From Escherichia phage vB_EcoM-Ro157lw, in sequence record MH051335.1: a stretch of 64,000 nt of DNA. One strand, written 5' to 3'. Position 1 is the stretch's first letter, and each line of letters opens with the position of its first letter. Below, in pieces: positions 890 through 48,753 of this stretch. The notes under the pieces are model-generated. The model was not told the origin of the DNA. It ran no database searches and worked only from the letters and a program-made list of their open reading frames with translations. The position numbers and the translations under genes are program-made.

Positions 890-1037
890 ATTACCTCCGG
901 TTTTGAGTTAATATGATTATAATGCAGAATTTCAGAAAGGCAAACTTTTTGTGAATTTAAATTAAAAAAATGGCCAGAAATAATCTGGCCAAAAAGATCA
1001 CCCTTTATCCACTACTAAGCTGGAATCATAATTTTAC

Positions 1038-1067
1038 TTGATATAGCTGTCTCAAGCAAACTATAAT
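1038..1067 (+). promoter_or_regulatory. sigma70-like promoter candidate (TTGATA-18 nt-TATAAT) upstream of terminase gene
   Basis: Hexamers read directly; -10 abuts ATG 1068, so the true start codon may be the in-frame ATG at 1101. Confidence 0.3.
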
Positions 1068-2528
1068 ATGAATAAAATATTAACACATAATTGGAAAGTC
1101 ATGTACCAGTTGAATCCTGCTTTAAGAGAAGTCTGGAAGACGAAAGCGCGATACAAAGTCATATACGGCGGTCGTGCATCTTCCAAATCGCACGATGCCG
1201 CTGGTTTTGCTATTTATTTGGCGGCAAACTTCAAATTAAAATTCCTTTGCGTTCGACAATTCCAGAACAAGATTTCTGAATCAGTATATACGCTATTAAA
1301 AGATAAAATAGAGATTTCTGATTTTAAAGACGAGTTCAACTTATTAAAGAACTCTATTGAACACAAAAGAACAAAATCTGAATTTTTATTTTACGGTATC
1401 GCACGCAACGTTGACGAAATCAAATCAACAGAAGGTGTTGATGTTCTTTGGCTTGAAGAAGCGCATGCACTGACTGAAGAGCAATGGGACATCATTGAGC
1501 CGACAATTCGTAAGGAAGGGTCCGAAATATGGATCATATTTAACCCTGATGAAGAGGCTGATTTTGTCTACCAGAACTTTGTCATGCGACCGCCGAAGAA
1601 TGCCATCGTTAAGAAGATTAACTGGCAGGACAACCCATTCTTGTCGCAAACAATGCTGGATGTTATAGCTGGCATGTATGAGCGCGACCCGAAAAAGGCA
1701 GAACACGTTTATGGCGGAGTACCGAAGACTGGCGGCGACAAGTCGGTCATCAACCGTGCATTTGTCAAGGCCGCGCTAAACCTCCACAAACACCCTACGC
1801 TGGGGTGGAGCTTGTCAGGGTCTAACCGTATAGGCTTCGACGTGGCGGACGACGGCGACGACTTAAACGCCACAGCGTTTGTCACAGGCAACGTATTACG
1901 TGGCATCAAGACATGGGAAGGTCTGGAAGATGAATTGCTTAAGTCCGCAAGCGGAGTTTGGAAAGACGCATTGACATTCGGCGCATCAATCACCTATGAC
2001 GCCATCGGTGTTGGTGCATTTGCTGGTTCAAAATTTGATGAGCTTAATGAGTATGCAATCCATGAAAATCCAACATTCCCAAGAATCGAATTTAATGCGT
2101 TCAACGCGCAAGGTGCTGTTGATGATCCTGATGACGTTTTCCTTGAGTTACCACACGTTGAAATACTCAATAAAGACCATTTCGCAAACATAAAAGCGCA
2201 AAAATGGACTGAGATTGCCGAACGATTCAGAAAGACATATGAGTATGCGACAGGGCAAGCCGTATATCCGACCGATGAGTTGATTTCCATCGACACAGAC
2301 GGCATCCCAGAACTTGGTATTCCCGCTTGGTCTGCCGAAGAAATTGAGACGTTTCTTTTTGAGATGTCAGCACCGCGCAAAGACACGTCTGTTCTTGGTA
2401 AGTTCAAAGTTGAATCGAAAAAAGATATGGCAAAGCGTGGAGTCAAATCGCCTAACAAAGCGGACGCAGCAATCATGGCATTGATGAAACCAATTGTTGC
2501 AGCATCCGGCTTCTTCTCTAACCTTTAA
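1068..2528 (+). CDS. terL: terminase large subunit (ATPase plus nuclease)
   Basis: Walker A-like GGRASSKS near N-terminus, Walker B-like VLWLEEAH, acidic nuclease-type C-terminal half; first gene of the structural module. Alternative start at 1101. Confidence 0.85.
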   Translation: MNKILTHNWKVMYQLNPALREVWKTKARYKVIYGGRASSKSHDAAGFAIYLAANFKLKFLCVRQFQNKISESVYTLLKDKIEISDFKDEFNLLKNSIEHKRTKSEFLFYGIARNVDEIKSTEGVDVLWLEEAHALTEEQWDIIEPTIRKEGSEIWIIFNPDEEADFVYQNFVMRPPKNAIVKKINWQDNPFLSQTMLDVIAGMYERDPKKAEHVYGGVPKTGGDKSVINRAFVKAALNLHKHPTLGWSLSGSNRIGFDVADDGDDLNATAFVTGNVLRGIKTWEGLEDELLKSASGVWKDALTFGASITYDAIGVGAFAGSKFDELNEYAIHENPTFPRIEFNAFNAQGAVDDPDDVFLELPHVEILNKDHFANIKAQKWTEIAERFRKTYEYATGQAVYPTDELISIDTDGIPELGIPAWSAEEIETFLFEMSAPRKDTSVLGKFKVESKKDMAKRGVKSPNKADAAIMALMKPIVAASGFFSNL

Positions 2529-2531
2529 CAA

Positions 2532-2771
2532 TTAAAGCATTCCGTGCTGAAGGTCGAGCTTTCTTGCGGCAAACGACCTGGCACGGAATCGCTTACCCGC
2601 CCTTACTGCCTGTCGAATTTTCTTTTGCAAACACTTACGGTCAAAATCGTTGCGGTCGACGGCTTCGAGTAAATCGCGACGCAGTGCACCCAGTGTCGAC
2701 TTATCGGAGACTTCGACGCCGAGCGCGGCTGCAACATCTTTCAAAACATCGAGTTCGGTTAAAGTTCTCAT
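2532..2771 (-). CDS. hypothetical protein (79 aa) with SAP/HeH-like N-terminus and basic C-terminus
   Basis: ORF antisense to the structural operon; N-terminal LTELDVLKDVAAALGVEVSDKSTLGALRRDL resembles a helix-extension-helix DNA-binding motif. Confidence 0.35.
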   Translation of the reverse strand: MRTLTELDVLKDVAAALGVEVSDKSTLGALRRDLLEAVDRNDFDRKCLQKKIRQAVRAGKRFRARSFAARKLDLQHGML

Positions 2772-3184
2772 TTAATAATCCCCTTGATGTCTGATTCTGC
2801 CATGAAGATTGGAGTGCCGCCGCCAGGAACAATCGAGCGCGTAACTTTGTCAAACATATCGTTTTCTTCAACTTGAATACGATAAAATTTATTTTTGGAT
2901 GAAGATGGGCACAATCCCATAAATTTGCCGATTCCGCGAACGCATTCATCTTCAAAGTATACTGTTTCACCTTGAATGGAGTCGATATTGTCTACTGGAT
3001 AGACTTTGCGACCCAACAACCACTCATCCAAAGTCGCCTGCAAGACGTTTCGCGCATCTAAAATCCACGGGTCAATAGTAGCACCTTCGTATCGCGCAGC
3101 AGTGGCCTTTGCCAGTTCTTCATATTCGCATACGTTAACGACTTCGCCGTTGTGTAGGACGACAAATACAATTGTTGTGCTCAT
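2768..3184 (-). CDS. hypothetical protein (138 aa)
   Basis: ORF with 4-nt ATGA overlap to the downstream gene; AT-rich promoter region upstream at 3185-3313. Confidence 0.45.
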   Translation of the reverse strand: MSTTIVFVVLHNGEVVNVCEYEELAKATAARYEGATIDPWILDARNVLQATLDEWLLGRKVYPVDNIDSIQGETVYFEDECVRGIGKFMGLCPSSSKNKFYRIQVEENDMFDKVTRSIVPGGGTPIFMAESDIKGIIK

Positions 3185-3279
3185 TTCAATCTCCTTTCGT
3201 TTGGTTAACTAAAATATAACTCAAAATGATACAAAAGCAAAATATTTTATGAACTATTTATGATCACCATACATATCAT

Positions 3280-3308
3280 TTGCTTACAAACACATGAATA
3301 TTTATAAT
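3280..3308 (+). promoter_or_regulatory. sigma70-like promoter candidate (TTGCTT-17 nt-TATAAT) upstream of portal gene
   Basis: Hexamers and spacing read directly in a divergent intergenic region. Confidence 0.35.
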
Positions 3309-3346
3309 ATAGATTGATTCCCTTTCACTGTCAGGTGGCGTTAACA

Positions 3347-5722
3347 ATGAAAATTCTTGGCATAAAACTCTGGGAGAAGACGCAACCAGAAGCCGAACCA
3401 GCGGAGATGCCGCCAGGCGACCCATTGGCACCGTTTGAACGCCTTGAAAGGCGCGGCAGCGGTCAACGCTGGGAAAAGACTGAAAGCAATCGACCGACCT
3501 TTAAAACGGTTGATGACTTCCCTTTATATGAGCCTGATATTAATGGCGATGGTGTTGCAATCATAAAAGGTCGTTCAGTCGATTCCGCAACAGTATCCAA
3601 AAAGGTTATGGATAATGCCTTAAAGAACATCAGTTCAGAAGGGCAAGTCAACCCATACACAGTACCTATTCAACTTCAAAACTGGTATTTGTCACAGTCA
3701 TTCATCGGCTATCAAGCTTGCGCAATTATAGCGCAGCACTGGCTGGTGAACAAGGCTTGTTCCATGGTAGGCCGCGATGCGGTCCGTAAAGGCTGGGAAG
3801 TTAAATCCAGTTCTGAGTCAGAATTGTCAGTACAAGCCAGCGAACGCCTAAAGCAAATTGATAAAGAATTTAATATCAAAGAGCACTTAGTTGAAGCCGA
3901 ACGATTCAAAAATATTTTTGGTATCCGCGTCATCATATTTGATGTGCGTAGCGATGACCCAGAATATTACAGCAAGCCTTTTAACATTGATGGTGTGACA
4001 AAGGGGTCTTATAAGGGAATCATTCAGGTTGACCCTTATTGGATGATGCCATTTTTGACGTCTGAAAACACCGCCGACCCTGCATCACAGCACTTCTATG
4101 ATCCAGAATACTGGGTGATCAGTGGACAACGTTATCATCGAAGTCACCTCATCATCTTGCGCAATGATGAGCCAGCTGATATTCTCAAGCCAACTTATAT
4201 TTACGGCGGCATTCCTCTGACTCAGCAGATTTATGAACGCATCTATGCCGCTGAACGTACCGCTAACGAAGCGCCATTGCTGGCGATGTCCAAGCGTACA
4301 ACCACGCTGCGGACCGACGTTGACAAGGCTATTGCCAATGAGCGGTCTTTTGCAGAACGTCTGATGATGTGGATCAAGTACCGCGACAACTATGCAGTCA
4401 AAGTGCTTGGCCAAAAAGAAGAGATGGACCAGTTTGACATCAACTTGTCAGACTTCGACAGCATCATCATGAACCAGTACCAGCTTGTGGCCGCAATCGC
4501 AAAAGTTCCGTCGACCAAACTGCTTGGGACTTCGCCAAAAGGCTTTAACGCCACTGGTGAATTCGAGATGGTCAGCTATCACGAAGAGTTGGAAACGTGC
4601 CAGCAGCATGACCTGACAAAAATTCTCGACCGCCATTACAAAATCCTTCTCAAATCAGAAGGGGTGGATGTCGATGTTAAGGTTGCATGGGAACCAGTTG
4701 GCTCACTTACTGCTACTCAACTTGCAGAAATCAATGATAAGCGAGCCAACACTGGCAAAACTCTTATTGATGCTGGCGTCATTTCTCCTGATGAAGAGCG
4801 CGACCGCATCAAAGACGACAAAAACAGCGGCTACAACCGTCTGCCGGAAGACGCAGCAGAAGAAACCCCAGGGATGTCTCCAGAGAATATGGCATTGCTT
4901 GGCAAGTCTGCTGGTGAAGTCCTGCAAGGTAAGGCCGATATTGAACAGGCGAAAGCTGATGTCGTTAAGATGGGCGGCCAGTTCTATAGCGAAACAGGTA
5001 TTATGCCAGAGGGTGCCGCGCGTGGTGAGTTGGCGGAAAACCCTGACAAGGCGCCTGTCGAAATCAACATGGACGATACCGATGATGAATCAAGCCATCA
5101 GGTTGATGTCCTAACGCAGTTGAAAGAAGGGCTGGAGGGTATTGCGGATTACTACCTGAAAGAAGGTCAGGATGTGGATTTTGACCCTCAAAAAGATTCA
5201 CGGTCGGTGCAACCGTCTACCCTTCCAAGCGTTAAAGGACACGTCGTCAACTTACGCCACAACGTGGGTAAAATGGACGCAGCATCATTACCTAAGATGA
5301 AGTTGCACGGAATGATTCTTGGCATTGAGAATCCGCGAAACAGCATTCGTAGAGGAAACAGCCTTGACGGTGAATGGGCCGTGAAGATGCCGCACCACTA
5401 CGGATTCATCAAGGGCACCAAGGGCGCAGACGGTGATGAAGTCGACTGCTTTGTGGGTCCAAATCTGAAGTCGCCGAAAGTCTTTATCGTGAACCAAAAC
5501 GATAACTACTCTGGCGAGTTTGATGAACACAAGTGTATGCTTGGATTCGATTCAGCAGAAGAAGCGAAAGAAGCTTATCAAGCATCATTTGGTAACGGTT
5601 GGAACGGATTCGACTCAATCCACGAATTAGATGTGAACTCATTCAAGGAGTGGTTGAAGGGTGATTGCTCTCAAGCATACGGAGCACTCAATAATCCTAC
5701 TAATTCACCGAAGCAAGGTTGA
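3347..5722 (+). CDS. portal protein with C-terminal inorganic-pyrophosphatase-like extension
   Basis: About 790 aa immediately after the terminase; RBS AGGTGG before ATG 3347; C-terminal 130 aa carry the DGDEVDC motif matching the family I pyrophosphatase signature. Confidence 0.75.
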   Translation: MKILGIKLWEKTQPEAEPAEMPPGDPLAPFERLERRGSGQRWEKTESNRPTFKTVDDFPLYEPDINGDGVAIIKGRSVDSATVSKKVMDNALKNISSEGQVNPYTVPIQLQNWYLSQSFIGYQACAIIAQHWLVNKACSMVGRDAVRKGWEVKSSSESELSVQASERLKQIDKEFNIKEHLVEAERFKNIFGIRVIIFDVRSDDPEYYSKPFNIDGVTKGSYKGIIQVDPYWMMPFLTSENTADPASQHFYDPEYWVISGQRYHRSHLIILRNDEPADILKPTYIYGGIPLTQQIYERIYAAERTANEAPLLAMSKRTTTLRTDVDKAIANERSFAERLMMWIKYRDNYAVKVLGQKEEMDQFDINLSDFDSIIMNQYQLVAAIAKVPSTKLLGTSPKGFNATGEFEMVSYHEELETCQQHDLTKILDRHYKILLKSEGVDVDVKVAWEPVGSLTATQLAEINDKRANTGKTLIDAGVISPDEERDRIKDDKNSGYNRLPEDAAEETPGMSPENMALLGKSAGEVLQGKADIEQAKADVVKMGGQFYSETGIMPEGAARGELAENPDKAPVEINMDDTDDESSHQVDVLTQLKEGLEGIADYYLKEGQDVDFDPQKDSRSVQPSTLPSVKGHVVNLRHNVGKMDAASLPKMKLHGMILGIENPRNSIRRGNSLDGEWAVKMPHHYGFIKGTKGADGDEVDCFVGPNLKSPKVFIVNQNDNYSGEFDEHKCMLGFDSAEEAKEAYQASFGNGWNGFDSIHELDVNSFKEWLKGDCSQAYGALNNPTNSPKQG

Positions 5723-5723
5723 T

Positions 5724-6575
5724 ATGGCTTTTAAAGCTTCGAAAAAACGTGAACGCCGCTCACCCGATAGAATCGGGCGCGGCAGTCCGATAATCCCATC
5801 AAACGCTATTGCGATGGCCTACCGTCGTGAGATGAAAGGTCTTTGCTATGCGATGATTGATGACTATCAGGCAGGAATTTCAGAGTGGCTTGAAAAGAAG
5901 CAGGTGCAGAAGTTCTTTGCGCAAGACTCTGCTGATTCAACATTCCAAACTCTTATGAAACGTCTGCAGCTGAAATGGGCAAAGGCGTTTGCTCGTGTTG
6001 GGTCGAAGATTGCCGCTGATTTTATCAAGTCGGTTGAAAAGGGTGCTACTTCTGCTACATTCGCCAGCCTTAAGTCCGCAGGCATAGAAGCGCCAAAGGC
6101 CACATATAACAAATTCGTTGAGAACACTCTTAGAACAAGCGAGACGTTTAACACGACTCTAGTGACTAAGGTCGGCGAGGATATTCACAACAGAGTGTAC
6201 GAAGCAGTCATGCTTTCGCTGACTTCGCCCGACCCAGCCCAGCAAGGCACGTCAGGCATTCAGGCGGCGCTGCGAAACGTAAAACACTTCTCTGCAAAGA
6301 GAGTCGACTTAATCGCTAAAGACCAGACAAGCAAATTGTATTGCGTTCTAAGCGATGAAAGGATGCGCCAGAATGGAGTTGAAGAATTTGAATGGGCGCA
6401 CTCAGGAGCAGGAAAGGAGCCGCGAATCTCTCATGAACACGTCGACGGAATGAGATTTAAACTTGATGACAAGCGCCTATGGGAAGTTGGCGGAGAATTG
6501 AAGTTCAAAAAGGGTGACATCGGTCCTCCTGGATGGGCAATACACTGCAAGTGCAGGAAAATACCAATCATTTGA
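5724..6575 (+). CDS. head morphogenesis protein (SPP1 gp7 / Mu gpF-like minor head protein)
   Basis: Position directly after portal; basic N-terminus; C-terminal ...GWAIHCKCRK typical of this family. Confidence 0.55.
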   Translation: MAFKASKKRERRSPDRIGRGSPIIPSNAIAMAYRREMKGLCYAMIDDYQAGISEWLEKKQVQKFFAQDSADSTFQTLMKRLQLKWAKAFARVGSKIAADFIKSVEKGATSATFASLKSAGIEAPKATYNKFVENTLRTSETFNTTLVTKVGEDIHNRVYEAVMLSLTSPDPAQQGTSGIQAALRNVKHFSAKRVDLIAKDQTSKLYCVLSDERMRQNGVEEFEWAHSGAGKEPRISHEHVDGMRFKLDDKRLWEVGGELKFKKGDIGPPGWAIHCKCRKIPII

Positions 6576-13775: not shown

Positions 13776-15314
13776 GTGATCAGTCAATCTCGTTATATTA
13801 AAATTGTATCAGGGGTCGGAGCAGGCGCGGCTGTTGCAGTTCGCAAACTGTCGCTTCGCGTCATGACTTCTAATACAGTTCTGCCGCCGGGCATTGTAGC
13901 AGAATTTTCAACGGCTGATGCTGTTGGATCATATTTCGGTTATTCTTCCGAAGAATATAAGCGCGCAGCATTATATTTTGGATTCATCAGCAAGCAAATT
14001 AACTCGCCTGATTCAATCAGCTTCTCGCGTATTGTTTCAACTGCGATTCCAGCAATGGTAATCGGTGATACTGAGCCTAAAGTGCTTGCTACGTTTCAAG
14101 CATTCACTGGCGCTATTTTAAGCATCACTTATGATGGCACAGACTACCTGACTGACGCAATTAACCTTTCAGCGGCAACAAGTCTGGCGAATGTGGCTGA
14201 ACTTCTGGAAACGGCAATCAATACTAAATTTGCAGCAGAAGGTGGCACGTCGGTGCCTGCACTTGCTGATGCAGAAGTGTATTGGAACGCTAATACTCAG
14301 CAGTTCACGCTGGAAGCAGCGCCGTCGACCGCTGGCGCAGGCAACCTGTCTATCAACGTCACAGGCCAACCGACCGACCCGTCTCAAGCATTGGGTTGGA
14401 CCACCACTGGCACCGTAACCGTTGCAGGCCAGGGCGTTTCAAGTCCGGTAGAAGCAATCGCAGCATCTGTGGAAATCTCCAACAACTTCGGCTCATTCCT
14501 TTTTGCTGGGGCTGACCGAACTCTGGAAGAAATTACCGCTGTGGCAGCGTGGAATCATTCGCAGAATAATATGTACATGTATTTATTCTCGACTTCGTTC
14601 GCTAATATCGGGTCATACTACACCGCTCTGAAAGGGTACTCAGGCGTTGGCATGATGATTCGCGCCACTAACCTTGCAAACGATTACATCGACCAAGCGC
14701 CTGCTGAAATCCTCGCGGCGACGAACTATAATACTGTGAATGCGACTCAAAACTACATGTATTATCAGTTTGATACTCGCAACGTGACTGTTTCAACTGA
14801 CTCTCGCGCAGATACTGCTGATCAAAATCGTGCTAACTACATCGGTGCAACTCAGCAGGCCGGACAAACCTTGGCATTCTTCCAGCGCGGCGTATTGATG
14901 GGCGGGTCTACCGCAGCAGTTGACATGAATACTTATGCCAACGAGATGTGGCTTAAATCTGCTATCACTTCTCAGCTGTTCAGCATGTTCTTGAATCTTG
15001 GTCGCGTGCCTGCAAACGAAGAAGGTAAAGCGACTGTACAAGCCATGATTCAAGTTGCTGTTGACAATGCGAAGGTTAACGGCACCATCTCTGTTGGCAA
15101 GGCGCTGACTGAGATTCAGAAACAATACATCACGCAAACTTCCGGTGACAACACTGCTTGGCGGCAGGTTGAAACTATCGGTTACTGGCTGACTGTAGAT
15201 TTTGATACTGAAACCACTTCCGATGGGCGCACCGAATACTATGCAACATACACGCTAATCTACTCTAAAGATGATGCTGTGCGTCGCGTTGAAGGTCGTG
15301 ACGTCCTTATCTAA
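13776..15314 (+). CDS. tail sheath protein
   Basis: 512 aa, GTG start with RBS AAGAGGA; followed by a 155-aa tube-like gene, as in contractile-tail modules. Confidence 0.55.
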   Translation: MISQSRYIKIVSGVGAGAAVAVRKLSLRVMTSNTVLPPGIVAEFSTADAVGSYFGYSSEEYKRAALYFGFISKQINSPDSISFSRIVSTAIPAMVIGDTEPKVLATFQAFTGAILSITYDGTDYLTDAINLSAATSLANVAELLETAINTKFAAEGGTSVPALADAEVYWNANTQQFTLEAAPSTAGAGNLSINVTGQPTDPSQALGWTTTGTVTVAGQGVSSPVEAIAASVEISNNFGSFLFAGADRTLEEITAVAAWNHSQNNMYMYLFSTSFANIGSYYTALKGYSGVGMMIRATNLANDYIDQAPAEILAATNYNTVNATQNYMYYQFDTRNVTVSTDSRADTADQNRANYIGATQQAGQTLAFFQRGVLMGGSTAAVDMNTYANEMWLKSAITSQLFSMFLNLGRVPANEEGKATVQAMIQVAVDNAKVNGTISVGKALTEIQKQYITQTSGDNTAWRQVETIGYWLTVDFDTETTSDGRTEYYATYTLIYSKDDAVRRVEGRDVLI

Positions 15315-22373: not shown

Positions 22374-22383
22374 AATATTGCTT

Positions 22384-22432
22384 ATAGACTCCTTATAGAT
22401 TATAATTTGTTGATCAGATATAAGGAGTCTAT
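22384..22432 (+). promoter_or_regulatory. 14-bp perfect inverted repeat whose right arm contains the Shine-Dalgarno and start codon of the next gene
   Basis: ATAGACTCCTTATA at 22384-22397 and TATAAGGAGTCTAT at 22419-22432; loop contains TATAAT. Confidence 0.4.
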
Positions 22433-48695: not shown

Positions 48696-48753
48696 TTTGC
48701 TTTTATTTTTCTAGCAACTATAATCATTTTATGAACTGAAGCAGAGGTTATTT

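What the first reader, a model, noticed from the sequence alone, without database searches (positions are those of the whole stretch)
2532..3184. Antisense two-gene insert between terminase and portal genes
Two translationally coupled minus-strand genes (138 aa and 79 aa) interrupt an otherwise plus-strand structural operon and have their own AT-rich upstream region. The 79-aa product has a SAP/HeH-like N-terminus and a basic tail. Opposite-strand inserts at the terminase-portal junction are a typical place for accessory cargo such as anti-defence, exclusion or toxin-antitoxin genes.
Basis: inference. Interest (0 to 1): 0.55.

Follow-up and report, generated by a model that had tools for sequence, protein, structure and literature searches.

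The report
Conserved leftward gene pair beside portal
The two small opposite-strand genes between the terminase and portal genes of this E. coli Wifcevirus phage are real and conserved, but they are the shrunken remnant of an old non-structural gene block shared by PB1-like phages, not a recent cargo insert, and their function is still unknown.

Summary
The window is a Wifcevirus myophage, 98.7% identical to vB_EcoM_WFH. Both ORFs exist as described: 138 aa at 2768-3184 and 79 aa at 2532-2771, both on the minus strand. They share an ATGA overlap, have good ribosome-binding sites and lie behind an AT-rich 162-bp upstream region. Both are present in 28 of 28 Wifcevirus records and are under purifying selection (dN/dS 0.09 and 0.06).

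They are not a variable insert. In every PB1-like relative examined, a leftward gene block separates a lone TerL gene from the portal gene. That block holds 2 to 12 genes, and Wifcevirus has the minimal version. The 138-aa protein belongs to phrog_5124. It is acidic, and its model has a small N-terminal alpha/beta domain plus an SH3/Tudor-like barrel. Its gene is the first one divergent from the portal gene in 12 of 12 contexts, from Pseudomonas to E. coli phages. The 79-aa protein has an acidic N-half and a basic tail, and occurs only in enterobacterial lineages. There, a trypsin-like gene sits between the two; Wifcevirus has lost it.

Published data show the 138-aa protein is expressed, tolerates a tag and, like the 79-aa protein, was not detected in virion preparations. 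Neither protein matches toxin-antitoxin, defence, SAP/HeH or small-terminase families.

The most likely role is as non-structural, host-promoter-driven proteins. The genes are already annotated as hypothetical, so interest is low to moderate.

The parts
2768..3184 (-). Gene for the 138-aa acidic protein (phrog_5124 family). Equivalent to WFH gp020, vB_Eco4M-7 gp35, and distant homologues PB1 ORF16 and Kyle gp028.
   Evidence: ORF. Present in 28 of 28 Wifcevirus records. dN/dS 0.086. blastp to Kyle gp028 E=7e-10 and to PB1 ORF16 E=3e-8. AlphaFold2 pLDDT 89.3. pI 4.7.
2532..2771 (-). Gene for the 79-aa protein with an acidic N-half and a basic C-half. Equivalent to WFH gp019, vB_Eco4M-7 gp34 and, distantly, Kyle gp026.
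   Evidence: ORF. Present in 28 of 28 Wifcevirus records. dN/dS 0.060. blastp to Kyle gp026 E=3e-10. AlphaFold2 gives four helices, pLDDT 76. pI 10.3.
2768..2771 (-). ATGA stop/start overlap that couples translation of the two genes.
   Evidence: Read directly from the sequence. In relatives the same AAATGA context starts a trypsin-like gene instead.
3191..3196 (-). Shine-Dalgarno AAGGAG of the 138-aa gene, 6 nt before its ATG.
   Evidence: Sequence. A ribosome-binding site is annotated at the matching place in phage Mansfield.
2780..2785 (-). Shine-Dalgarno-like AAGGGG of the 79-aa gene, 8 nt before its ATG and inside the end of the 138-aa gene.
   Evidence: Sequence. A ribosome-binding site is annotated at the matching place in phage Mansfield.
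3185..3346 (.). AT-rich divergent regulatory region shared by the leftward pair and the portal gene.
   Evidence: GC about 0.32. Identity across the genus is 97.5-100%, while flanking synonymous divergence is 0.4-0.9.
3306..3334 (-). Leftward sigma-70-like promoter candidate: CTGACA, 17-nt spacer, TATATT. Its -10 element overlaps the -10 of the portal promoter.
   Evidence: Consensus scan, 10 of 12 matches. Both hexamers are kept in the 53%-identity relative L005. Function is inferred.
3226..3253 (-). Second, proximal leftward promoter candidate: TTCATA, 16-nt spacer, TATCAT.
   Evidence: Consensus scan, 9 of 12 matches. It lies where L018 and L006 have TTGACT-16-TATAGT/TATACT promoters. Its -10 is not kept in L005.
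3280..3308 (+). Rightward portal promoter candidate: TTGCTT, 17-nt spacer, TATAAT.
   Evidence: Conserved in alignment A6, including L005. The motif occurs 4 times in the window against 0.08 expected.
971..991 (-). Intrinsic terminator on the minus strand, just beyond the TerL promoter. It is the first predicted stop for leftward transcripts that start at the pair.
   Evidence: 8-bp stem followed by T7. Annotated as a terminator in WFH. Terminators sit at the equivalent place in L005 and L018.
1101..2528 (+). Context: the large terminase gene. It converges on the 79-aa gene with only 3 nt between the two stop codons.
   Evidence: Pfam Terminase_3, E=3.2e-37. Own promoter TTGATA-18-TATAAT at 1038-1067.
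3347..5722 (+). Context: the portal gene with a C-terminal InPase domain. It is transcribed divergently from the pair.
   Evidence: Pfam Phage_portal_3 E=3.4e-88 and InPase E=3e-46.

Best explanation
The pair is the minimal surviving version of an ancestral, leftward-transcribed, non-structural gene block. In all PB1-like myophages that block lies between a lone TerL gene and the portal gene.

Shown here: both are genuine, selected, translationally coupled protein genes. The 138-aa protein belongs to a small phage-only family (phrog_5124). Its gene always sits first after the promoter region that is divergent from the portal gene. The family is uniformly acidic. The model has a small N-terminal beta-beta-alpha-beta domain and a C-terminal SH3/Tudor/Sm-like barrel. 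The 79-aa protein is a four-helix protein with an acidic N-half and a strongly basic tail, and it is confined to enterobacterial lineages. Wifcevirus has lost the trypsin-like, roughly 100-aa and DUF2786 genes that accompany the pair elsewhere.

Inferred: the pair is transcribed by host RNA polymerase from sigma-70-like promoters in the 162-bp divergent region and translated as a coupled unit. The products act inside the infected cell, not in the virion. The acidic barrel protein would act as a protein-binding adaptor or inhibitor. Its target would be a conserved host or phage partner, and my best single guess is the transcription apparatus. The 79-aa protein would bind nucleic acid, or an acidic partner, through its basic tail.

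The evolutionary and anatomical part is well supported. The molecular function is a low-confidence inference.
For: Identity and conservation:
- The window is 98.7% identical to phage WFH.
- Both proteins are in 28 of 28 Wifcevirus records.
- dN/dS is 0.086 and 0.060, against 0.013 for TerL and portal.

Ancestral block and orthology:
- The 138-aa family is found in Kyle, PB1, L005, L006, L017 and L018.
- The 79-aa family is found in Kyle, L005, L006 and L018.
- A trypsin-like gene lies between the two genes in all four of those lineages.
- These results come from the contexts and orthology map.
- The 138-aa family gene is divergent from the portal gene in 12 of 12 contexts.
- No trypsin-like, DUF2786 or PB1 ORF12 (14-1 gp12) homologue exists anywhere in the window.
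- The junction sequence fits a clean deletion between two AAATG motifs.

Family size: a full HMMER scan of 1.8 billion representatives found 21 proteins at E<=0.001. Eighteen are small proteins of 81-225 aa, at least two are repeat-protein artefacts and one very long hit was not checked. Sixteen of 23 family members match phrog_5124.

Structure and charge:
- AlphaFold2 pLDDT is 89.3.
- All 22 full-length members have pI 4.5-5.1.
- The 79-aa model has four helices, and its C-half carries +5 to +10 net charge across the family.

Non-virion and expressed:
- Neither gp34 nor gp35 is among the 33 vB_Eco4M-7 proteins or the 28 ECML-117 proteins detected by mass spectrometry (PMC7048862).
- A gp35-HiBiT phage plaques as well as the untagged phage (336 against 332 plaques).
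- The mean differences in the paper's supplementary table imply clear luminescence from that phage (PMC11074155).

Promoters: sigma-70-like candidates lie in an intergenic region that is 97.5-100% conserved.

Same block in a relative: in Pbunavirus 14-1 the block holds gp12, reported to bind the RNA polymerase alpha subunit (cited in PMC10914365).
Against: - No homology or fold match assigns a function to either protein.
- The only hint of an RNA polymerase link is a sub-threshold CarD_TRCF_RID hit (E=0.058), seen in 1 of 23 family members.
- Expression timing has not been measured. The portal promoter is also sigma-70-like, so promoter type does not prove early expression.
- The 138-aa family is missing from the Serratia Myosmarvirus locus, so it is not strictly universal.
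- Absence from mass-spectrometry lists is weak evidence for small proteins.
- Tolerance of a C-terminal tag says nothing about whether the gene is essential.
- The fixed position next to the portal gene would fit an assembly role equally well.
Confidence: 0.55

Rival explanations
1. Accessory cargo. The pair would be an anti-defence, superinfection-exclusion or similar host-interaction module carried in a hot spot between the terminase and portal genes.
For: - The slot varies from 2 to 12 genes among relatives.
- In relatives it carries obvious accessory genes, such as a secreted trypsin-like protein.
- The 138-aa protein is small and acidic, like many phage inhibitors.
- dN/dS is about 5 times higher than for TerL and portal.
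Against: - The pair is present in 28 of 28 genomes of the genus.
- The 138-aa family keeps one fixed position across phages of Pseudomonas, Pantoea and Escherichia in 12 of 12 contexts. That is the opposite of the patchy distribution typical of anti-defence genes.
- GC content matches the genome and there are no insertion scars.
- PADLOC, Pfam and NCBIfam gave no hits. PADLOC does not model anti-defence proteins, so this point is weak.
Confidence: 0.15
2. A morphogenesis helper. The 138-aa protein, possibly with the 79-aa protein, would be a non-virion assembly factor such as a portal or procapsid chaperone. Selection for co-regulation would keep its gene next to the portal gene.
For: - The gene is strictly adjacent to the portal gene, and divergent from it, in 12 of 12 contexts.
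- The shared regulatory region is extremely conserved.
- Absence from mature virions fits a chaperone.
- HiBiT signal from the tagged 138-aa protein is comparable to that of the tagged portal protein.
Against: - The gene is on the opposite strand, in a block that in Pbunavirus contains an RNA polymerase-binding protein.
- It is absent from Myosmarvirus, which has the same portal and head genes.
- No similarity to known scaffolding or chaperone families was found.
Confidence: 0.17
3. Regulators of the divergent promoter switch. The 79-aa basic protein, with the 138-aa protein as partner, would bind the conserved 162-bp region and decide between leftward and portal-direction transcription.
For: - The intergenic region is 97.5-100% identical while neighbouring synonymous sites have diverged by 0.4-0.9.
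- The -10 elements of the leftward and rightward promoter candidates overlap.
- The 79-aa protein has a basic tail and a helix-linker-helix N-terminus.
- The opposite net charges, -7 and +7, and the translational coupling are compatible with a complex.
Against: - The 79-aa family is absent from PB1, L017 and Serratia, which have the same divergent layout.
- The 138-aa protein is acidic, so it is unlikely to bind DNA.
- No helix-turn-helix, SAP or HeH model matches.
- No repeated operator-like sequence was found in the region.
Confidence: 0.1
4. A toxin-antitoxin or abortive-infection-type two-gene module.
For: There are two small overlapping genes with their own promoter.
Against: - No toxin-antitoxin, defence or toxin family matched in Pfam, NCBIfam or PADLOC.
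- In four related lineages a protease gene separates the two genes.
- In Pbunavirus only the 138-aa homologue exists.
- The host phage is strictly lytic.
Confidence: 0.03

Closest known systems
phrog_5124 (PB1 ORF16, 14-1 gp16-position protein, Pantoea phage Kyle gp028, vB_Eco4M-7 gp35)
   Same: The 138-aa protein is a member. Sixteen of 23 family sequences match the PHROG model, best E=2.9e-88, and the window protein itself scores E=2.9e-4. Pairwise blastp to Kyle and PB1 gives E=7e-10 and 3e-8. Length, acidity and position, first gene divergent from the portal gene, are all shared.
   Different: Identity to the Pseudomonas members is only 24-30%. The enterobacterial members carry an insertion of about 20 residues in the barrel. 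The family has no assigned function.
Leftward gene block between TerL and portal in Pbunavirus (PB1 ORF5-16, including 14-1 gp12, the reported RNA polymerase alpha-binding protein)
   Same: The genomic slot, the strand, the divergent promoter region shared with the portal gene, and the first gene are the same.
   Different: PB1 has 12 genes and a terminator before TerL. The window has 2 genes, no gp12 or DUF2786 homologue, and no terminator until beyond TerL.
SH3-like small barrels (Sm/LSm, Tudor, KOW, PWWP, CarD/TRCF-RID)
SAP / HeH / Rho_N helix-extended-helix DNA-binding motifs
   Same: The 79-aa N-terminus is predicted as helix, 9-residue linker, helix, with a central Gly and spaced hydrophobic residues.
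   Different: No Pfam model of this class matched any of six members at E<=10. No structural match was found. The weak PHROG match is to phrog_2130, which has no known function.
Phage small terminase (TerS)
   Same: It is a small protein encoded next to TerL, which is the usual place for TerS.
   Different: In the related phage E217, TerS is a 21-kDa protein encoded about 58 kb from TerL (PMC9611059). Neither protein's family profile matches any PDB chain, the E217 TerS entry 7UXE among them. The genes are on the opposite strand.

Membership tests
phrog_5124 (138-aa protein) | Significant match to the family profile | tested here: met
   The window protein scores E=2.9e-4. Sixteen of 23 aligned homologues match, best E=2.9e-88. 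A profile built from 9 members recovers Kyle, Pbunavirus and metagenomic members at E=1e-53 to 1e-10.
phrog_5124 (138-aa protein) | Conserved genomic position: first gene transcribed divergently from the portal gene | tested here: met
   True in 12 of 12 contexts.
CarD/TRCF RNA polymerase-interacting domain (PF02559) | Score above the Pfam gathering threshold (23 bits) | tested here: not met
SAP / HeH / Rho_N motif (79-aa protein) | Sequence match to a SAP, HeH, LEM or Rho_N profile | tested here: not met
   No such Pfam family matched any of 6 members at E<=10.
SAP / HeH / Rho_N motif (79-aa protein) | Helix, extended linker, helix architecture | tested here: inconclusive
   AlphaFold2 gives helix 6-17, linker 18-26 and helix 27-40 at pLDDT 75-83, from an alignment of only 3 near-identical sequences. 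Foldseek against the PDB gave no hit better than E=6.
Toxin-antitoxin module | Either partner matches a known toxin or antitoxin family | tested here: not met
   Pfam, NCBIfam and PADLOC gave no matches.
Toxin-antitoxin module | The two genes are inherited as an obligate adjacent pair | tested here: not met
   A trypsin-like gene separates them in L005, L018, Kyle and L006. Pbunavirus has only the 138-aa homologue.
Toxin-antitoxin module | Toxicity of one partner, neutralised by the other | not testable with these tools
   This needs expression assays in E. coli.
Small terminase (TerS) | Similarity to solved TerS proteins, including E217 TerS (7UXE) | tested here: not met
   Profile searches of all PDB sequences returned nothing relevant. 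E217 TerS is encoded about 58 kb from TerL.
Variable accessory (moron-like) insert | Patchy presence among close relatives, atypical composition, or insertion scars | tested here: not met
   The pair is present in 28 of 28 records. GC is 0.42-0.51, like the genome. Only chance-level short repeats were found.
Virion structural protein | Detected in purified particles | tested here: not met
   Published mass-spectrometry lists for vB_Eco4M-7 (33 proteins) and ECML-117 (28 proteins) lack both proteins, while the adjacent portal protein is detected (PMC7048862). This is literature evidence and is weak for small proteins.

The most novel reading that the evidence does not exclude
The leftward unit would be more than two ORFan genes: it would work as a timing device.

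In Wifcevirus and its nearest relatives L005 and L018, no terminator can fit between the last leftward gene and the converging TerL gene. The first predicted leftward terminator lies just beyond the TerL promoter. Transcription starting at the ultra-conserved divergent promoter region would therefore run antisense through all 1.4 kb of TerL and across its promoter. That would silence terminase until the leftward promoter is shut off. The acidic 138-aa barrel protein and the basic 79-aa protein could be the factors that flip the overlapping leftward and portal-direction promoters.

This would be a convergent-transcription switch coupling non-structural gene expression to DNA packaging in a phage group used for therapy.
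Probability: 0.12. Interest if true: 0.55.

Novelty: already known. Interest (0 to 1): 0.25.

Why it matters
Wifcevirus phages and their Pbunavirus relatives are used or proposed for biocontrol and therapy, and most of their non-structural genes are uncharacterised.

This work shows the pair is a conserved signature of the lineage. One member is fixed next to the portal gene from Pseudomonas phages to E. coli phages. That changes it from presumed dispensable cargo into a likely core, non-virion function worth a knockout.

The result also cautions against a common heuristic. An opposite-strand gene in a structural region is not necessarily a moron, meaning an independently acquired accessory gene. 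Here the lone TerL gene is the oddly oriented one.

The practical gain is modest. The genes are already annotated as hypothetical proteins, and no new mechanism is demonstrated.

Tried and rejected
- **Function by sequence homology.** Pfam, NCBIfam, PADLOC and PDB sequence searches gave nothing significant for either protein.
- **CarD/Mfd RID lead.** A motif resemblance and a Pfam hit at E=0.058 suggested it. I rejected membership because only 1 of 23 homologues hits.
- **Small terminase.** Rejected.
- **Giant-protein hits in the HMMER scan.** Two of the three giant hits (4289 and 2720 aa) are Big_5/SpaA repeat proteins, so those matches are spurious. The third (7573 aa) exceeded the scan's length limit and was not checked.
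- **Insertion scar.** TTAACAAT(T/G)AAA occurs at 2525-2536 and 3341-3352, flanking the pair. By my own estimate about one such 11-of-12 match is expected by chance in this 1-kb region, and several similar chance-level repeats were reported, so I rejected it.
- **RNA elements.** The 116-nt leader has no unusual fold (z = 0.63), and Rfam gave no credible hit.
- **Expression timing from the literature.** The 14-1 ONT-cappable-seq paper holds no per-gene data in its text, and its supplements are not held. Further literature searches were unproductive.
- **Deeper alignment for the 79-aa model.** Only window and database sequences could be submitted, so the model rests on 3 near-identical sequences.
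Full report
**1. What the window is**

Bases 1000-5800 match Escherichia phage vB_EcoM_WFH at 98.7% identity over their full length. Twenty-eight phage records, all Wifcevirus-like phages of E. coli or Shigella, cover at least 80% of the query. The flanking genes are a large terminase (Pfam Terminase_3, E=3.2e-37) and a portal protein that carries a C-terminal InPase domain (Phage_portal_3 E=3.4e-88, InPase E=3e-46).

**2. Checking the observation**

- The ORF list gives minus-strand ORFs at 2768..3184 (138 aa) and 2532..2771 (79 aa).
- The sequence shows an ATGA overlap at 2768-2771. AAGGAG lies 6 nt before the first ATG, and AAGGGG lies 8 nt before the second.
- The 162-bp upstream region 3185-3346 has GC of about 0.32, against 0.42-0.51 in the two genes and about 0.46 nearby.
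- Both proteins are encoded in 28 of 28 Wifcevirus records at 94.9% identity or more.
- Across eight genomes, dN/dS is 0.086 for the 138-aa gene and 0.060 for the 79-aa gene. TerL and portal give 0.013-0.014.

These are therefore real genes under purifying selection, not chance ORFs.

Two details of the description need correction. First, TerL is not part of a continuous plus-strand operon. It is a lone plus-strand gene, probably starting at 1101, with its own promoter TTGATA-18-TATAAT at 1038-1067. Minus-strand genes lie on both sides of it. Second, the SAP/HeH label is only a resemblance (section 5).

**3. Synteny: a remnant, not an insert**

I used the portal protein to find distant relatives and homologues of the 138-aa protein to find metagenomic contigs. 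The same layout appears throughout the PB1-like group: TerL alone on one strand, then a block of opposite-strand genes, then a divergent promoter region, then the portal gene.

| Phage or contig | Genes in the block |
|---|---|
| Wifcevirus (window, and the 85%-identity relative L008) | 2 |
| L005 | 4 |
| L018 | 5 |
| Pantoea phage Kyle | 5 |
| L006 | 6 |
| Serratia phage WR01 | 7 |
| Pseudomonas phage PB1 | 12 |

An all-against-all blastp and HMM searches over all ORFs give the orthology map:

- The 138-aa family is present in the window, L008, L005, L018, Kyle, L006, PB1 (ORF16) and L017. It is absent from the Serratia locus.
- The 79-aa family is present only in the window, L008, L005, L018, Kyle and L006.
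- In those last four lineages a Trypsin_2 gene lies between the two genes and overlaps both.
- A DUF2786/DUF7168 gene is shared by nearly all relatives but is missing here.
- No trypsin-like, DUF2786, roughly 100-aa or PB1 ORF12 (14-1 gp12) homologue exists anywhere in the 64-kb window.

In L005 the 138-aa gene ends in ...GTGAAATGAAAAAG, where the trypsin-like gene starts. The 79-aa gene starts at ...CACAAATGCGCC. The window has ...ATTAAATGAGAAC, so the same AAATG context now starts the 79-aa gene. This fits a clean deletion of the protease gene in the Wifcevirus ancestor. That conclusion is an inference from parsimony: four lineages that bracket Wifcevirus keep the protease gene.

In every context I could examine, 12 of 12, the 138-aa family gene is the first gene divergent from the portal gene. 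This holds even at 19-30% identity. The contexts include contigs L016, L017, L019, L020 and L021, and tblastn confirmed the portal neighbour in each.

**4. The 138-aa protein**

- No Pfam, NCBIfam, PADLOC or PDB sequence match was found.
- It belongs to phrog_5124, which has no known function. Sixteen of 23 homologues match.
- A full HMMER scan of 1.84 billion cluster representatives found 21 proteins at E<=0.001. Eighteen are small proteins of 81-225 aa. Two long hits that I checked are Big_5/SpaA repeat proteins and are spurious. A third, of 7573 aa, matched only over a short repeated stretch. It was too long to scan and is probably spurious too.
- AlphaFold2 with a 9-sequence alignment gave a confident model (pLDDT 89.3, pTM 0.79). 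Residues 4-42 form a beta-beta-alpha-beta unit and residues 59-137 form a beta-barrel.
- The viral structure library returned only the protein itself and its Kyle homologue.
- A CarD_TRCF_RID hit (E=0.058) is below threshold and is seen in 1 of 23 members, so I do not claim membership.
- All 22 full-length members are acidic, with pI 4.5-5.1 and net charge -6 to -12. This argues for protein binding over nucleic-acid binding.

**5. The 79-aa protein**

- Homologues outside Wifcevirus were found only by synteny.
- The AlphaFold2 model, built from a shallow alignment, has pLDDT 76 and four helices at 6-17, 27-40, 45-58 and 64-76.
- The N-half is acidic (-3) and the C-half strongly basic (+10 here, +5 to +10 across the family).
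- No SAP, HeH, Rho_N or LEM model matches any of six members at E<=10.
- Foldseek against the PDB finds nothing better than E=6.
- A weak match links the N-terminus to phrog_2130, of unknown function, in 4 of 6 members.

**6. Published experimental evidence**

- In vB_Eco4M-7 the two genes are gp34 and gp35.
- Mass spectrometry of phage preparations detected 33 vB_Eco4M-7 proteins and 28 ECML-117 proteins. The neighbouring portal protein was detected; neither of these two proteins was (PMC7048862).
- A synthetic-genome study tagged gp35 (138 aa) with HiBiT. [quoted passage not shown] The tagged phage gave 336 plaques against 332 for the untagged phage (PMC11074155).
- That paper's supplementary table lists mean luminescence differences. 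Since no signal can be negative, they imply a gp35 signal of at least about 2×10^6 RLU in one strain. In another comparison the gp35 signal exceeded that of the tagged portal protein. The protein is therefore made during infection.
- In the related phage E217, the small terminase is encoded about 58 kb from TerL (PMC9611059). This removes the TerS option.
- In Pbunavirus 14-1, gp12 is reported to bind the RNA polymerase alpha subunit (cited in PMC10914365). By the shared gene numbering of PB1-like phages it corresponds to PB1 ORF12, which lies in the equivalent leftward block. I did not verify this correspondence.

**7. Regulatory anatomy**

- The 162-bp intergenic region is 97.5-100% identical across the genus, although flanking synonymous divergence is 0.4-0.9.
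- It holds a rightward TTGCTT-17-TATAAT promoter at 3280-3308. This motif occurs 4 times in the window against 0.08 expected.
- It also holds two leftward candidates. CTGACA-17-TATATT at 3334-3306 has a -10 element that overlaps the rightward -10. TTCATA-16-TATCAT lies at 3253-3226.
- The stop codons of the 79-aa gene and TerL are 3 nt apart, and no terminator is predicted there.
- The first minus-strand terminator is a strong hairpin at 991-971, just beyond the TerL promoter. L005 and L018 have the same layout.
- PB1 instead has a terminator in its ORF5/TerL gap, and no terminator was found in L006.

Leftward transcripts probably run antisense through TerL. This is an inference from sequence only.

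**8. Interpretation**

The evidence firmly supports the following. The pair is a conserved, selected, expressed and probably non-virion gene pair. It is the reduced remnant of an ancestral leftward block, and the 138-aa gene is a positional signature of PB1-like phages.

The mechanism is not established. My best guess is host-polymerase-driven, non-structural proteins. The acidic barrel protein would act as a protein-binding adaptor or inhibitor, possibly of the transcription apparatus. The 79-aa protein would bind nucleic acid or an acidic partner.

The rivals are an assembly helper, a promoter-switch regulator, anti-defence cargo and a toxin-antitoxin module. They are ranked in the structured fields, each with the experiment that would separate it from the others.

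**9. Novelty and score**

The genes are already annotated as hypothetical proteins in 28 GenBank records, and one of them has been tagged experimentally. No new kind of system is demonstrated. The antisense-through-TerL architecture and the ultra-conserved divergent promoter region are the most interesting loose ends. Interest: 0.25.

Noticed in passing
window 971-2534 (minus strand); also L005 7061-8618 and L018 7336-8857: The 79-aa gene and TerL converge with only 3 nt between their stop codons, and no terminator is predicted there. The first minus-strand terminator (991-971, 8-bp stem plus T7) lies just beyond the TerL promoter (1038-1067). Leftward transcripts should therefore be antisense to all of TerL. 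L005 and L018 share this layout. PB1 instead has a terminator in the gap between ORF5 and TerL.
   Followed up: partly
window 3185-3346: The divergent intergenic region is 97.5-100% identical across eight Wifcevirus genomes, while synonymous sites in the flanking genes have diverged by 0.4-0.9. It is more constrained than the coding sequence. It contains leftward and rightward promoter candidates with overlapping -10 elements.
   Followed up: partly
L005 5411-6019; L018 5414-6013; L001 (Kyle) 2796-3341; L006 5444-6004: In four related lineages a Trypsin_2-family gene sits between the homologues of the two genes and overlaps both. Its product has a signal-peptide or lipobox-like N-terminus (MKKAIALLSLALAGC in Kyle). 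A secreted protease in a lytic phage's non-structural block is unexplained. Wifcevirus has lost it.
   Followed up: partly
window 3347-5722: The portal protein (791 aa) carries a C-terminal InPase domain (PF18823, E=3e-46). Every PB1-like relative whose portal product carried Pfam hits shows the same fusion. This part of the portal was not modelled in the E217 cryo-EM structure, where only residues 97-528 of 765 were built.
   Followed up: no
window 3280-3308, 13970-13997 (minus strand), 22378-22406, 48697-48724: The promoter-like motif TTGCTT-N16-18-TATAAT occurs 4 times in the window against 0.08 expected by chance. This suggests a preferred -35 variant in this phage's host-type promoters.
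   Followed up: no
window 1068-1101: The mechanical TerL ORF starts at ATG 1068, directly abutting the -10 of its predicted promoter (1038-1067). The start at 1101, used in the WFH, WFC and Mansfield records, is more plausible. vB_Eco4M-7 annotates the longer 486-aa form.
   Followed up: partly
P0035 (225 aa, metagenomic): A distant hit contains two tandem copies of the N-terminal beta-beta-alpha-beta domain of the 138-aa family without the barrel. This suggests the N-terminal domain is an independent module. It has weak, sub-threshold similarity to Pfam DUF7336 in three family members.
   Followed up: no
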